Origin: Myxococcota bacterium
Lineage (GTDB): Bacteria > Myxococcota_A > Polyangia > Nannocystales > Nannocystaceae
Direction of reading: 5' to 3'
NCBI GenBank assembly: GCA_039028615.1
Contig: JBCCHT010000043.1
Location: 1-64,000, forward strand
Length of the DNA: 64,000 nt
Position 1 is the first letter of the stretch, and each line of letters begins with the position of its first letter. Below are positions 31,301 to 43,300 of the stretch, piece after piece. Position numbers: made by a program.

Positions 31301-34300
31301 CACCGAGTTTTTCGCTCGCTCCGAGACTCGGGTGCGCCAGTCGGCGTAGGCTCCAATCGTCGTGCCGCGCATCTCGAAGGAAGAACGCAAGCTCGTACGG
31401 GCGCGCCTGCTCGACAGCGCCGCCCGGCACTTCGCCGAGCACGGCCTCGCCGGGGCCAACATCAACCGCATCTCGCTCGACGCCGGCTACGCCAAGGGCA
31501 CCATCTACAACTACTTCGCCTCGAAGGAAGAGCTGTTCGCCACGATCTTGCGCTCGGGCAGCGACGTCACCGTGCTGCGCTATCGCGAGCGCCAGGTCGA
31601 GGGCGACCTGCGAGTTCACCTGCTCGCGCTCGCCGAAGAGGACGTCGCCCTGGTCCAAAAGCACGAGCCCTTCATGCAGGTCATCGTGCGCGAGCTGCTG
31701 AGCACCCGACCCGCGACCCGCGAGCATCTCGATGCCGGGCTGCGTCCGCTGATGGAGGTCATCGTCGGGCTCATCGACGGTGCACGCCAGCGGGGGGAGC
31801 TGCGCACCGACCTCGAGACCCCGCAGCTGGCCACCCTGTTCGTGGGCCAAATGACGATGCTCTACGCCGAGCACTGGCGCAGCGACGGCGTCTGGCCCAC
31901 CTGGGAACAACTCCCGCAGCTGCTGGTCACCGTGTTCTTCGAAGGCATGAAGCCCCGCTGAACGCGGGCCCTGCCGCTGTCCGCCCGATTGGTCTATACG
32001 GGAGGCAGGATCCGCCGTTCATGGAGCTGTCGACCGCCCACGGGCCCCTGCCCGCCCCTTGCTACATCCCCGACGCGACCCGCGGGTTCGTGCGCTCCGT
32101 CGACGCCAGCGACCTCGAGGCGGTGGGCATCCCCGCGTTGATGATCAACGCGTACCACCTCATGACGCGGCCCGGCATTCGGGTAGTGCAACGGCTGGGT
32201 GGGCTGCATCGCTTCGCGGGATGGTCGGGGCCGATCGTCACCGACTCGGGCGGCTTTCAGGTGTTCTCGCTGATCCGGCAGAACCCCAAGCACGGACAGA
32301 TTCGCGACAACGAGATCGTCTTCCGCCCTCCCGACGGCAAGGACAAGCTCATCCTCACCCCCGAGAAGGTCGTGCAGACCCAGTTCCGGCTGGGCGCCGA
32401 CGTGATGGTCGCCCTCGACGACTGCACCGGACCCGAAGCGCCTGCCGACGAGCAGCGCCGGGCCGTCGATCGCACCGTGGCCTGGGCCCGACGCGCGCTC
32501 GTGGAGTTCAATCGTCAGCTTGCCCAGCGTCGCAGCAAAGACATTCCCCCGACCCTGGTCGCCCCGATTCAAGGCGGCAACGATCCCGCGCTACGACGAG
32601 ACTGCGCCAACGCCCTGCTCGATGCCGGCCTCACCACCTTTGGCTTCGGCGGCTGGCCCCTCGACGAGCACGGTGCGCTGCAGCTCGACATGTTCCAGGT
32701 GCTGCACGAGCTGCTGCCCATGACCACGCCTCTGTTCGCGCTGGGCGTGGGCAAGCCCGAGCACCTCACCGCCATCACGGCGCTGGGTCGACCCGCCGTG
32801 TTCGACAGCAGCCTGCCCACCCGCGATGCTCGACACCATCGCCTCTACCGCTTCCGCGACGCGCTGCCCGAGGGGCCGCTGACCTCGGGCCGAGACTTCT
32901 TCGAACGGCTGTACATCCTCGACAAGAAGCACGCGACCGCCGACGAGCCGATCTCGCCGCATTGCGATGCGTTGTGTTGTCGCCGCTATAGCCGGGGTTA
33001 TCTGCACCACCTGTTCAAGTGCGAAGACCCTCTGGCCAAGCGCCTGGCGACGCTGCACAACCTGCGCTTTTACACGCAGCTGGCGGCCCATCTGCAAGAG
33101 CACGGCGCTCGCTGAAGCCCGGTCGTCGCCGCGCCTACGACTCGCCCCCGGAGTCACCGGCCGCGAGTCGGTTGAAGCCGTGGCCCTTCACAATGGGGAC
33201 GACGCGGGTCACCGCGAGCCCATCGGTCGCACCAATTGCGAACCGACGCGGCCAACTCGTCCACCGTGTTCGACTGCACTGTACCACTGACTGTCAGAAC
33301 CGCAACGAGGAAGTCTATGCCGCCAGATAGCCCTTGCGCCACGAATTCGGCCGGTCATACTCGCCAACCGTGGTTGAGGTGGAACACCCAATGGAGGTGC
33401 CGGACTCCGTGTCTCGGCAATTGTCGGACGACGAGCAAGCCCGGCTGATGACCTGGTGGATGACCCTGGACGCCGACGAGCGACGTGCACTCGTCGGGTC
33501 GTGGGCCGCCGACGCTCCGTCGCGACCCGAGCTCGACGACGAGCTGATGCTCTTGCTGGAGCCGCGCTTCATCGACCCGAGCAACCGCGAGCACCAGCGG
33601 AACCTCGAGGAGAACTACGAAGCCTACGTGCAGCGACTCGAGTACATCCGCTCGCATCCCGAGTACAAATGGTCGCTCGAGGTTCGCAATTTTCACATCT
33701 GTCGAGCCCACCGCCGAGCCCGAGCGGCGGTCGAGACGGGCCGGCTGCGCGCCGACTTCGAGTGTCCTCTCGCTCGCGATTCGTGTCCCATGCGGAGGCT
33801 GCTCGACCTGCGACCGGGTCATGATGTCGAGCTCGCGATCGTGGGCCTGCGGTCTGGCCGAGCGCTCCCTTCGAGCCATGACCGACCTTCGATGTGAAGG
33901 CGGTTGCCTACGTGGTGCGGTGCGTTTCGCAGTCACGCTGCCCAGCAAGTGGTGTGCCCACTGCCGCCGCCACCTCTGCCGAAAGGTCCACGGTGCGGCG
34001 TACGTCACAGGGCTCGGCAAGGGCGAGGACTGCTTCGAGTTCACGAAGGGTGAAGACGGTCGTCCGCGTTCACCTCCTCCGCGCAGGCGTAGCGCGGTTG
34101 ATGTCGGCATTGCGGCAGTAGGAGGCATGGCGCGTCGGCGGAAGGAATCGTTCGGTTTCCCCAGTTCGGAGGAACTCCCGGTACCGAGCCGTTGAAGTAA
34201 GCGGCCTCGTTGATCCGCATCACACCGCGAGTCCATCACGAGCGCTCGAGCGAGTTCCCGACGGCGAGGCGTGGGTGTTTGTCGTTAGGCTTCGCGTGGG

Positions 34301-40300: not shown

Positions 40301-43300
40301 GAACCGACCCATCATCGCACGGTAGGGCTCGACGAGACGTCGGCCCCCGTGCGCACTCACGGCCGGCAAGGACACCACCACGTGCCGAGCCGGGATCGCG
40401 GCCAGCCAGTCGCCGTCGATCTGCGTGGGGTAGTTGCGAGCGAGCCGATGCAGCTCCTTGAGCAAGAGGGCTACGTCGGCGCGCTGCGTCGGGGGGTCGA
40501 GCACGATGTCTCGCACCTCGGCGCCGCCGGGCTGGCCTCGTGCCCGCAGGTACCGGTCGAGGAACTGCACGCGCGCCTCGTGGATGTCGTAGGCGAAGTA
40601 CTGCGTGGTCGCGGGCAAGCCCATCCACGGCATCGCCACCGGGCCCAGCGCGCACGCCAAGTCGAGCACGGTGCCCGGCATGCCCGTCTGCTCGAAGATC
40701 GCGGCGTAGAACTCCCGCACGTAGGGCCAGCGCTCGCGGGTGCTCAGGTGCAACCCGAGCGCCTCCTCGCATAGCGCCTGCTCTCGCGCGGCGTCGCCGG
40801 CCTCGAGCGCCTCGACCACGGCGGGGCCCAGCGTCTCGTAGTCGGGATCGCCCAGGTGATCGGCGACGATGCCATGCAGGCGCTTGCGAACCGCCTTGTC
40901 GAGCGCCTTGCGCTTGCGGTGCTGCGGGAAGGCCTGCTCCACTAGCGCCCGCACCGTGGCCTCCGCGACCGTCCGGTACTTTCGCGAGCTTCGGATCGCC
41001 GCCACCACGGCCTCGATCTGTTCGGCGTCGCTCACCGCCCGGAGGGTAGCGCGCCACTCCAACGAAAACGACGCCCCCACAGTGCAGGGACGTCGTCTCG
41101 AAGTCAGGGCTGCCGTAGCCCCGGCGGGACCCTCTAGGCGAGGATCTCGGTGAGCGGCGTGGTCGACATCGGAGCGCCGCCACCGACGGACGGAGCATCC
41201 GGGTCGAAGGCCCGCAGGCACGACAGGAGCACGTCGCTCATGTTGCCCTCGGACGGCGTGTTGTTGGCGTCCGGGTCGGCCGCGGCGACCGCCTGGTAGT
41301 GGATGCCCGGGTGGACGAGATGGCCACGCCCGGTGCCCGCCAGGATGATGGGCTGACGACGCACGCTGTGCGACCAACCGATGGAGCAGTCGCTGCTGCC
41401 GTAGATGATGGTCGAGTCGAGCAGGTTGGTGCCGTCGAGGTCCTCGGTCTGTCCGAGGATCTGAATCATCTCGGCGAAGCGCTCCATGATGTAGACGATG
41501 CCCAGGTGATAGGCCTCGTTGCCCTCGTGGCTGAGCACGTGCTGGGTGCTGCCGCTGCCGCTGGAGGACTCGGCGAACGCCGCCTCGCCCGCGAGGGGCA
41601 AGAACAGGTTCGAGGCCACCCGCGTGATGTCGCAGGTGAACGCGTACGCGATGAGCTCGGTCATCAGCTGGTTGGTCAGCGTCAGCTGCTCGGCGTTGAC
41701 CGGCTCGTTGTTCTCGTGGTCGGGCTGGGCCGGAAGATCGCAGGTCGGCGGCGTGGCGGTGATCTTCTGCTCGAGTTCGGCCAGGGCCTCGAAGTGAGCA
41801 TCGAGGCGCTGGTTGTCGAGCATGCCCAGCCGCGGACGCAGCTGGTCGGCATCTTCACGCACGGCATCGAGGATGCTCAGGCGCAGCGCGCTGTCGTCGG
41901 GGGCGGGCACGAACTCGCCGAAGATCGACTGCCACACCTGGGCGGGGCTGGACTGACCGTAGAGCGGGGTGAGGCTGCCCGGCTCGCCGCGCACCGAGAT
42001 GGTGGTGGCCGTGGTGCCGTTATCCGCAGGCGAGAAGCCCTTGGAGCACTGCACCTGCATGGAGCGAATGGGCGTGGTGACCCGCTCGGCGATCGCGTCC
42101 GCGATGACCTGGTCGATGGTGGGGCCGCCGTAGTTCGAGGCGAACCCGGGACCGCCCGTCTGCTGGAAGGTATAGCCGCTGAACGCGGTCATGCCCTCGT
42201 GGTGCGTGATGGCATCGGCACACCGGTTTTGCATGCCGCTGACGATCGACACGTAGTCCTGAACCGGAGCGAAGGGAGCGAGCTCCTCGGAGAGCTCGTA
42301 GCCCGGACCGAGGGTGAGCGGCTCCCAACGGCTGTTGATGATGCCGTTGCCCCAGAAGAAGGAGATGAACCGAGTCGGCAGGTCCTGACCGTTGGCCAGG
42401 GCGGTGCCGTTGCTGTTGAGCATGGCCTCGAGGGGCGGCAGGCCCACCGAGACGGCGGCGCCTCCGAGCAGGCCTCGAAGCATGGTGCGGCGGTTGAGCT
42501 GGAACTTGCGCAAGGGATGCATGGCGAAGTGACTCCGTTTTCCGAAAATGCCTTTGTGCCTACTTGGGGGCGTCCACCAAGCGGAACAGCGGGTTGACGG
42601 TCAGTTCGACCATGAGTGCTTTGTAGTTGTAGTCGGTCTCGGAGAAGCTCTCGTCCAGGGTGGCGATGCCGGCGGCCTGGTCGAGGCCGGGGTCGTGGCC
42701 CAGCGTGCTGCGGTAGAGATTCCGAACGACGCAGTTCGGAACCCGCGGGTCGTTGCGGATGAGCCCGGCGAGGTCGGCCGCGCCGCCGAAGCTACCCACG
42801 CCGCCCACCTCACCCGAGGAGTCGATGGGAAGCCCGTTGTCGAGCTGTCGGAAGGCACCGATCGCACTGTAGCGCTCGAACGCGAAGCCGATGGGATCCA
42901 TGAGCGCATGGCAGGCCGCACAGCTGTCGTCCTGGTTGTGCTCGTTCTCCAGCCACTCGCGCAGGGTCTGGCCCTCCATCGGTGCCGGCGGCATGACCTC
43001 CACATCGGGCGGCGGCGGCAGGATGTCGGTGCACAGCAGCGTCTCCTGCACGAAGAGCCCGCGTCGCGTGGGCGAGTTGATGTCGGGGTGAGAGAAGACG
43101 CTGAGGAACGCGGGGTGCGTCAGGAAGCCCGCGCGCTGCTGGCCTTCGGGGAAGGACACGAGCTGCCACGGGAACTCGGGTGGATCCATCCCGTACAGCT
43201 GAGCGAGGTCGTCGTTCACGAACGTGTAGTTCGCGTCGAAGATGCCCAGGAAGTTGCTCTCCTCTTCGAAGACCACGTTCTGGATGAGCAAGAGCGTCTC

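What a model noticed while it worked through the whole genome (the two positions that open the first line are those of the whole stretch)
32021..41080. A TGT paralogue (GntV type) and ArmA/Rmt-type 16S methyltransferases travel together as one unrecognised RNA-modificatio [...]
Besides its normal tgt (g08197, next to queA), the genome has a second tRNA-guanine transglycosylase (g07766). It belongs to a distinct subfamily in which GGWP replaces the GGLSVGE preQ1-pocket motif. This subfamily co-occurs almost strictly with FmrO-family m7G1405 methylases (here g07772, 7 kb away, and g02797 at C9:36988-37806), also in bacteria that are not known aminoglycoside producers, so the two look like one functional module acting on RNA.
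Evidence so far: In the family, the TGT paralogue (E<=1e-95) and PF07091 occur in the same 6 of 73 genomes, the whole genus. In an even Chloroflexota sample, leaving out unpublished G645: 44 of 200 have the TGT, 46 the methylase, 44 both, 40 with the genes under 500 bp apart. A homologue's 90% cluster holds GntV and a 'possible fortimicin production protein' of Micromonospora. 12 plasmids carry it; 4 of the 8 listed show rmtG at the match. D75-SGG, D134, D262 and G210-G211-W212-P213 are invariant in 33 aligned members. g02797 matches Sgm at E 2.8e-70. Searches 189, 194, 195 and 196 listed no paper on the link.
(Added by a program. Inside this text positions count along the whole contig: contig position 1 is position 1 of the stretch shown here. 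"Call 12" and the like, gene names such as g00115 and contig names such as C1 are that model's own, and its searches are not shown. The text may have been shortened before it was handed on; [...] marks where a part breaks off. The agent that wrote the report below was given it as the finding of a first reader that could run no searches.)

Follow-up and report, generated by a model that had tools for sequence, protein, structure and literature searches.

The report
Base-swapping enzyme paired with resistance methylases
A second, altered tRNA-guanine transglycosylase almost always comes with the ribosomal RNA methylases behind aminoglycoside resistance and with other enzymes that modify the same few ribosomal bases, which suggests an untested idea: in their natural hosts these methylases are only the first step of a new ribosome modification.

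Summary
The link is real and larger than reported. The paralogue (TGT2, 32021-33115) and PF07091 methylases co-occur in 6 of 73 genomes of the family. In Chloroflexota, 45 of 198 genomes have intact TGT2, all with the methylase. All 7 Bacillota methylase genomes (of 401) have TGT2 beside it. It came with the cassette and is the genus's only rsmI; ArmA is known to block ordinary RsmI. rsmF and rsmH also join. In two actinomycetes the cassette carries queC/D/E/F but the genomes show no other tgt and no queA, so TGT2 most likely consumes preQ1. TGT2 keeps the catalytic residues but has Pro where canonical TGT offers an NH to guanine N7. Best model (about 0.4): the methylase makes m7G1405 and TGT2 swaps it for preQ1, a 7-deazaguanine in 16S rRNA. 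The target is untested. The window's methylase is a divergent type B copy; the canonical one is on C9. The rmtG-tgt operon is already noted in print, and 1594 Rmt plasmids compare with 12 carrying full TGT2.

The parts
32021..33115 (+). TGT2: GntV-type tRNA-guanine-transglycosylase paralogue, 364 aa. Catalytic D75, D133, D262 kept; subfamily marks D18, R86, W212-P213, A240-L241, D269, R274, D301.
   Evidence: pLDDT 93.9; TGT fold, TM 0.86
37953..38717 (-). Cassette-type RsmI (16S C1402 2'-O-methyltransferase), the only rsmI found in the genome. Start at ATG 38717 is my choice; ATG 38732 is also in frame.
   Evidence: TIGR00096 173 bits, cut-off 167.9; single copy; 60-66% identical to cassette RsmI of mostly Chloroflexota loci and 35-40% to RsmI of 24 other family genomes, nested in the cassette clade; starts
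40220..41035 (-). FmrO/Rmt-family methyltransferase, type B (K-E-x-H in place of K-T-x-P). The canonical type A copy lies outside the window at C9:36989-37804.
   Evidence: PF07091 163.6 bits; NF000466 166.6, under its cut-off of 250; motif and tree; alignment to Sgm; starts

Best explanation
The genes form a cassette that remodels the ribosomal decoding site (16S nucleotides 1402-1407).

Step 1, shown for homologues: a type A FmrO/Rmt enzyme methylates N7 of G1405.

Step 2, inferred: TGT2 uses its Asp262 nucleophile to cut out that 7-methylguanine and inserts preQ1, or a related 7-substituted deazaguanine. The result is a chemically stable, positively charged base at 1405.

Step 3, inferred: a cassette RsmI, plus RsmF or RsmH in some lineages, keeps C1402 and C1407 methylated where ordinary RsmI would be blocked.

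The type B methylase is optional and its role is open: a second G1405 methylase, or a methylase of the preQ1 amine. PreQ1 comes from the host's Q pathway, from salvage, or from queC/D/E/F carried in the cassette. Resistance plasmids mostly captured step 1 alone, which is enough for resistance. In this genome's genus the cassette arrived by horizontal transfer and replaced the native rsmI.
For: Dependence:
- Intact TGT2 goes with PF07091 in 45 of 45 Chloroflexota genomes and 6 of 6 in the family.
- PF07091 goes with adjacent TGT2 in 7 of 7 Bacillota and 2 of 2 further genomes of the own phylum, one split over contigs.

Target region:
- Neighbours in 80 TGT2 loci: FmrO 62, RsmI 39, RsmF 12, YhhQ 6, QueA 3.
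- In 45 evenly drawn Chloroflexota loci: FmrO 42, RsmI 19, RsmF 5. RsmI is adjacent in 7 of 7 Bacillota. rsmH-tgt-rmtG-partial rsmI occurs on a plasmid.
- ArmA blocks RsmI at C1402 (PMC3923132, section 7). The window's rsmI is the cassette type.

Incoming base:
- G858 and G074 carry queC, queE, queD and queF inside the cassette. No other tgt and no queA was found in either.

Pocket:
- D75, D133, C135, G211, D262 are 100% and Q184 99% conserved in 231 TGT2 sequences.
- In Z. mobilis TGT the Ala232 NH binds guanine N7 through water, and the flipped carbonyl binds preQ1 with help from Glu235 (PMC3660597).
- TGT2 has Pro at that site (100%) and does not keep the Glu. This fits bases that carry carbon at position 7 both on leaving and on entering (my inference).
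- G1405 has a 3' U in the 16S genes of five TGT2 genomes, like tRNA G34.
Against: - No activity, substrate or modified base was measured. The rRNA target rests on gene neighbours.
- QueF is in only 23 of 45 TGT2 genomes against 50 of 153 others. Of ten QueF-less TGT2 genomes tested, four also lack queA. None of five has a clear queC, and only one of five has a strong YhhQ. The incoming base may therefore differ between lineages or come by unknown salvage.
- The queC/D/E/F evidence comes from two actinomycete lineages, one of them a MAG.
- Three of 15 TGT2 genomes, all or mostly fragmented MAGs, showed no PF07091 (G1078, G075, G1086).
- RsmI is beside TGT2 in only 19 of 45 Chloroflexota loci, and the cassette RsmI may simply be Chloroflexota's native RsmI.
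- One member (G114) lacks GGWP.
- Kin are not independent, and the family result is one transfer.
- The 16S gene of this genome was not found with a short motif.
Confidence: 0.4

Rival explanations
1. TGT2 puts preQ1 into 16S rRNA without needing m7G, either at unmethylated G1405 or at a nearby G followed by U (G1494, G1497). The methylase acts in parallel, or afterwards on the preQ1 amine.
For: The same neighbour and queC/D/E/F evidence applies. Type B enzymes gain Glu and His next to the conserved Lys, which could serve to deprotonate an amine (inference).
Against: Sgm, GrmA and Krm methylate G1405 itself in E. coli or on purified 30S (PMC2760815). Most TGT2 loci have only a type A copy. Loss of the NH that binds guanine N7 fits plain guanine less well.
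Confidence: 0.2
2. TGT2 is a tRNA enzyme that inserts preQ1 at G34 or another site, to offset the decoding errors caused by m7G1405.
For: TGT fold, dimer-interface residues and R268/R271 are kept. YhhQ and QueA neighbours occur. Rmt enzymes lower translational accuracy (PMC12406665). In G858 and G074 it is the only TGT found.
Against: 44 of 45 Chloroflexota TGT2 genomes have a second TGT match, and 7 of 7 Bacillota have a canonical tgt, so a G34 role would be redundant. The actinomycetes lack queA. Several RNA-side positions differ from canonical TGT (D18, R86, D269, R274). The other steady neighbours all act on 16S 1402-1407.
Confidence: 0.2
3. TGT2 is an eraser or repair enzyme that exchanges m7G for guanine, or hydrolyses it, making the methyl mark reversible or removing misplaced m7G.
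For: It explains the one-way dependence on the methylase and the W212-P213 pocket. It needs no preQ1, which fits the TGT2 genomes without queF, queC or queA. The new invariant D18 lies near the active site.
Against: It does not explain queC/D/E/F inside the cassette where TGT2 is the only TGT. Removing the mark would be risky in producers, where gntV lies next to grmO (consecutive accessions).
Confidence: 0.12
4. There is no shared substrate: tgt2 rides along in an old RNA-modification operon, or serves a small-molecule pathway in aminoglycoside clusters.
For: Operons of RNA-modification genes are common. Kin inflate the counts. G858's cassette lies beside an aminoglycoside-like cluster.
Against: Co-occurrence holds when the genes are far apart: 12 of 15 genomes without a local methylase have one elsewhere, and so do G159, G226 and G126. 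Gene order differs between lineages. In G202 both genes carry stops, though that could be assembly error.
Confidence: 0.08

Closest known systems
Bacterial Tgt (TIGR00430, Z. mobilis and E. coli TGT)
   Same: Same fold (TM 0.86), Asp102/Asp156/Asp280, Cys158, Gln203 and Gly230 equivalents, zinc site mostly kept, preQ1 pathway linked.
   Different: Below the family cut-off; Leu231-Ala232 become Trp-Pro, Glu235 is not kept, Val45 becomes Asp, Met260 becomes Leu, two insertions; sits with 16S methylases and usually in addition to a canonical tgt.
Arm/Rmt/Kgm 16S m7G1405 methyltransferases (PF07091; Sgm, GrmA, RmtB/D/E/G)
   Same: The C9 copy has the canonical K-T-x-P and F-P-x-x-S-L motifs. Both copies keep the SAM and guanine-pocket residues named for Sgm (K199, S104, E107, P229; PMC2896518).
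   Different: Here they are chromosomal genes tied to TGT2 and RsmI. The window copy is type B, grouping with GrmO-like and Anaerolineae second copies (FastTree support 0.89).
rsmH-tgt-rmtG-'rsmL' operon and the gntV-grmO pair of the gentamicin cluster
   Same: These are members of the same cassette; the plasmid 'rsmL' is a partial RsmI.
   Different: In the passages I saw they are only listed as neighbours (PMC9311965, PMC3904158), with no subfamily, distribution or function given.
DpdA / ArcTGT: TGT relatives with other targets (DNA, tRNA G15)
   Same: A TGT paralogue redirected to a new nucleic acid and travelling with its own que genes (recalled, not from a call).
   Different: TGT2 scores far lower on the archaeal model (TIGR00432 69.6 bits). 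No Dpd genes were among the recurrent neighbours. No TGT2 turned up in viral contigs, and the best phage hits were at 35% identity or less.

Membership tests
TGT superfamily (PF01702 / TIGR00449) | Profile score over cut-off, TGT barrel, catalytic aspartates | tested here: met
TGT superfamily (PF01702 / TIGR00449) | Cys3-His zinc site | tested here: inconclusive
   C315, C320 and H346 are kept; the second Cys is Ala317 in the window protein (Cys in 76% of the family); neighbouring C319 may stand in
Queuine tRNA-ribosyltransferase Tgt (TIGR00430) | Score over the family cut-off | tested here: not met
   259.7 against 306.75
Queuine tRNA-ribosyltransferase Tgt (TIGR00430) | Leu231-Ala/Ser232-Val233-Gly-Glu235 peptide switch | tested here: not met
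   W212-P213-L214-D215-x in 231 TGT2 sequences; L-S-V-G-E in most of 15 canonical ones
Queuine tRNA-ribosyltransferase Tgt (TIGR00430) | Exchanges G34 of GUN tRNAs for preQ1 | not testable with these tools
   needs an assay
Archaeosine TGT (TIGR00432) | Score over cut-off and C-terminal domains | tested here: not met
   69.6 against 350; 364 aa
FmrO family (PF07091), window gene 40220-41035 | Pfam score over cut-off; SAM motifs; HxSTxER; Lys199 and Pro229 equivalents | tested here: met
Rmt m7G1405 equivalog (NF000466), window gene | Score over cut-off and K-x-x-P motif | tested here: not met
   166.6 against 250; K-E-L-H. The C9 copy scores 238.3 and has K-T-L-P
Rmt m7G1405 equivalog (NF000466), both copies | Methylates N7 of G1405 | not testable with these tools
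   Shown only for homologues (PMC2760815); I could not tell whether Krm or FmrO of that paper are type B
RsmI (TIGR00096) | Score over cut-off | tested here: met
   173.1 against 167.9
RsmI (TIGR00096) | 2'-O-methylates C1402, also on G1405-modified 30S | not testable with these tools
   needs an assay

The most novel reading that the evidence does not exclude
Ribosomal RNA in many Chloroflexota, some Bacillota, myxobacteria and aminoglycoside producers carries a 7-deazaguanine (preQ1 or N-methyl-preQ1) at 16S position 1405, made by methyl-primed base exchange. The Arm/Rmt 'resistance' methylases would then natively be the priming enzyme, with m7G1405 an intermediate, and pathogens would have captured half a pathway.
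Probability: 0.4. Interest if true: 0.93.

Novelty: new variant of a known kind. Interest (0 to 1): 0.8.

Why it matters
Arm/Rmt methylases give pan-aminoglycoside resistance, and their origin and native job outside producers are open questions. This cassette supplies a chromosomal context in about a quarter of sampled Chloroflexota and in Bacillota lineages close to the plasmid genes. It also offers a reason for a known cost of ArmA: it blocks ordinary RsmI, and the cassette brings its own. If the model holds, it adds rRNA to tRNA and DNA as carriers of 7-deazaguanines and shows a TGT that uses a methylated base as leaving group. One mass-spectrometry experiment on 16S rRNA from a harmless cultured host would decide it.

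Tried and rejected
- The idea that His248 (Asp267 in Z. mobilis) switches recognition from U33 to C1404 was dropped: His is only 74% conserved and the canonical Asp only 46%. The role of Asp267 was recalled, and search listed no paper with that term.
- QueF as a required partner was rejected: 23 of 45. TGT2 pocket motifs do not differ between QueF-positive and QueF-negative genomes.
- No special 16S sequence: the 1400-1410 stretch is standard in five TGT2 genomes.
- HMG-CoA synthase, GFA, the PPC-domain gene and the tRNAs between the genes were rejected as members. HMG-CoA synthase and GFA recur only in this genus.
- No TGT2 in viral contigs; best phage hits are 35% identical or less.
- No RNA holder listed for the locus; this is no evidence on expression.
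- No complex prediction was obtained, and no binding is claimed.
- Earlier findings: nothing returned.
- Paper searches gave no hits; others listed nothing on TGT2 function; two gave the two descriptive mentions.
- The 2024 review on 7-deazaguanines (PMC10966956) and a human TGT-RNA structure paper were not held. They, subscription papers on the gentamicin and fortimicin clusters, and all supplements (none read) could hold prior notice.
- Rows left out of counts: unpublished G103, G235, G238; weak PF07091 hits G545 and G857 (29 bits, not tested for TGT2) and five sub-threshold actinomycete genomes; three weak QueF hits over the cut-off (G108, G218, G274); the divergent L025 in the methylase residue table.
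Full report
Observation. The window holds a 364-aa TGT paralogue at 32021-33115 (+), here TGT2. It scores 283 bits on PF01702 but misses the Tgt equivalog cut-off (259.7 against 306.75). The genome's canonical tgt lies on C48 beside queA, is 35% identical and reads GGLSVGE where TGT2 reads GGWPLDE. 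PF07091 genes lie at 40220-41035 (-) and on C9. Between TGT2 and the window methylase lies rsmI (37953-38717, -; TIGR00096 over cut-off), the only rsmI found in the genome.

Co-occurrence. In the family both genes occur in the same 6 of 73 genomes, one genus. In an even Chloroflexota sample, with three unpublished genomes left out, 45 of 198 have intact TGT2 and 47 have PF07091. All 45 are among the 47, and the other two have a broken or split TGT2 beside the methylase. In Bacillota, 7 of 401 genomes have the methylase over cut-off; all 7 have TGT2 and rsmI directly adjacent and a separate canonical tgt. In the own phylum, 2 of 250 other genomes have the methylase, both with TGT2 adjacent, one split over contigs. 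In Actinomycetes, 1 of 400 drawn genomes plus the centre genome have both. Against this: 3 of 15 TGT2 genomes without a local methylase showed none elsewhere. Kin are not independent.

Plasmids. All 12 records with full-length TGT2 have rmtB2, rmtD1, rmtD2 or rmtG next to it. Truncated tgt lies before rmtE2 in the two of four such records I opened. But 1594 plasmid records match the methylase. The methylase works without TGT2; TGT2 is almost never seen without the methylase.

The cassette. Among 80 TGT2 loci, FmrO lay within the fetched DNA in 62, RsmI in 39, RsmF in 12, YhhQ in 6 and QueA in 3. In 45 evenly drawn Chloroflexota loci the counts were FmrO 42, RsmI 19, RsmF 5. Orders vary: rsmI-fmrO-tgt2; yhhQ-rsmI-tgt2-fmrO-fmrO-rsmF; tgt2-fmrO-rsmI; rsmH-tgt2-rmtG-partial rsmI. 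RsmH, RsmI, Rmt and RsmF modify C1402, C1402, G1405 and C1407. ArmA blocks RsmI but not RsmH or RsmF (PMC3923132, section 7 read); other papers report a block of RsmF instead (PMC12406665, passages). The window's RsmI is 60-66% identical to one cassette group and 35-40% to the RsmI of 24 other family genomes (the best 24 of 60 non-genus hits). It nests in that cassette group with support 100/99, though the tree tool warns that long branches meet. So the genus most likely gained the cassette by transfer and lost its own rsmI. In relatives G046 and G050 the three genes lie within 5 kb.

The incoming base. In G858 the order is rsmI-tgt2-queC-queE-queD-fmrO-queF. In G074 it is queC, fmrO, rsmI, an ORF, tgt2-queE-queD-fmrO-queF. 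QueE and QueF pass their NCBIfam cut-offs in both, QueD in G858 and QueC in G074. G858's QueC was scanned only in part, and G074's QueD only by similarity to G858's. Neither genome showed another tgt or a queA; G858 is a single contig, G074 a MAG. TGT2 is thus the only visible consumer of preQ1 there, and the product is not matured to queuosine. The window's genome has its own queC, queD, queF and a weak queE match. Against a universal preQ1 supply: QueF is in 23 of 45 TGT2 genomes against 50 of 153 others. Four of ten QueF-less ones also lack queA, and among five tested none had a clear queC and one a strong YhhQ.

The enzyme. The model is confident (pLDDT 93.9) and matches TGT structures (TM 0.86). 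By the alignment to Z. mobilis TGT, D75=Asp102, D133=Asp156, C135=Cys158, Q184=Gln203, G211=Gly230 and D262=Asp280. These are 99-100% conserved in 231 TGT2 sequences, so it is very likely an active guanine-type transglycosylase. Asp280 as nucleophile is from PMC3660597 (passages); the roles of the others are recalled. Fixed changes are Val45 to D18, Leu231-Ala232 to W212-P213, loss of Glu235, Met260 to L241, and new R86, D269 and R274. In canonical TGT the Ala232 NH faces the pocket for guanine and binds N7 through water; the peptide flips, helped by Glu235, to offer a carbonyl to preQ1. Proline has no NH. I infer a pocket for bases with carbon at position 7 on both sides of the exchange: 7-methylguanine leaving, preQ1 entering. 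This would also explain why TGT2 needs the methylase. G1405 is followed by U in the 16S genes of five TGT2 genomes, as tRNA G34 is.

Two methylase types. Type A (K-x-x-P; Sgm, RmtB/D/E/G, the C9 copy) is the usual partner of TGT2. Type B (K-E/T-x-H; 23 of 93 sequences) includes the window gene, the Anaerolineae second copies that precede rsmF, and the actinomycete cassette copy, whose relatives include GrmO. Wherever I could check, type B came with a type A copy in the same genome. It keeps the guanine-pocket residues named for Sgm (PMC2896518, passages). Sgm, GrmA and Krm methylate G1405 in E. coli or in vitro, and FmrO and Krm cluster apart from other producer enzymes (PMC2760815, passages and introduction). 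If those two are type B, then type B is also a G1405 methylase; I could not settle this.

What is known. A review states that rmtG is part of an operon with rsmH, tgt and rsmL (PMC9311965, passage). A genome paper notes a tRNA ribosyltransferase gene upstream of rmtG (PMC3904158, passage). Reviews list GrmA, GrmO and FmrO as self-resistance genes (PMC6100412, PMC6804068, passages). A 2026 compendium lists only m7G at 1405 (PMC13602947, passages). Searches listed nothing on TGT2 as a subfamily or on its function. The main 7-deazaguanine review was not held, and I recall, unchecked, that que-like genes were annotated in the gentamicin and fortimicin clusters.

Verdict. The module is real, has at least three core members and points to the decoding site. 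The shown steps are the co-occurrence, the gene content and the residue changes. The inferred steps are the rRNA target, position 1405 and the order of reactions. I give about 0.6 to a 7-deazaguanine somewhere in 16S helix 44, 0.4 to methyl-primed exchange at G1405, 0.2 to a tRNA target and 0.12 to an eraser.

Noticed in passing
window 33878-34057 (+): Decayed GFA-family gene: 62% identical to the first 60 residues of the intact gene in relative G046, with Cys ligands lost.
   Followed up: partly
window 34304-35797 (+): HMG-CoA synthase-like gene kept between tgt2 and rsmI in this genus (G046, G050) but not among recurrent neighbours in other phyla.
   Followed up: partly
window 37444-37639 (-) and 42671-42756 (+): tRNA-Leu(CAG) and tRNA-Arg(ACG) lie just downstream of rsmI. 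The tRNA-Ala(AGC) call falls inside a DUF1592 gene and is probably false.
   Followed up: no
G000:C1:424383-425369: A second, divergent queA-like gene (151 bits) away from the tgt-queA pair.
   Followed up: no
G050:C167:684-1292 (L025): A third, very divergent FmrO-like gene in a genus relative (79 bits, long branch).
   Followed up: no
L260 (G197:C101), L265 (G1080:C27): Type B methylase followed by rsmF stays together even when unlinked from tgt2, suggesting a sub-module.
   Followed up: partly
L183 (G858:C1:3990000-4009999): The cassette adjoins an aminoglycoside-like cluster (glycosyltransferase, radical SAM and B12 radical SAM enzymes, inositol dehydrogenase) holding the type A methylase.
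   Followed up: partly
L106 7152-7961; L107 5606-5984; L283 near 2380-2480: A metallophosphoesterase sits between tgt and rmtB2; pieces of rsmH lie upstream of tgt at rmtD loci.
   Followed up: partly
L257 (G114:C279): A TGT2 member with G-E-V-P in place of G-G-W-P.
   Followed up: no
G202:C209; G242:C39: In G202 both tgt2 and the methylase carry stops; G242's tgt2 has one TGA. Joint decay or assembly error.
   Followed up: partly
G035-G039, G041, G042 (genus g15 of the family): Two canonical-type tgt copies per genome, without PF07091.
   Followed up: no
L177, L179, L180 (Bacillota): A divergent gene upstream of tgt2 in three related loci; the one scanned matches gamma-glutamyltransferase.
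   Followed up: no
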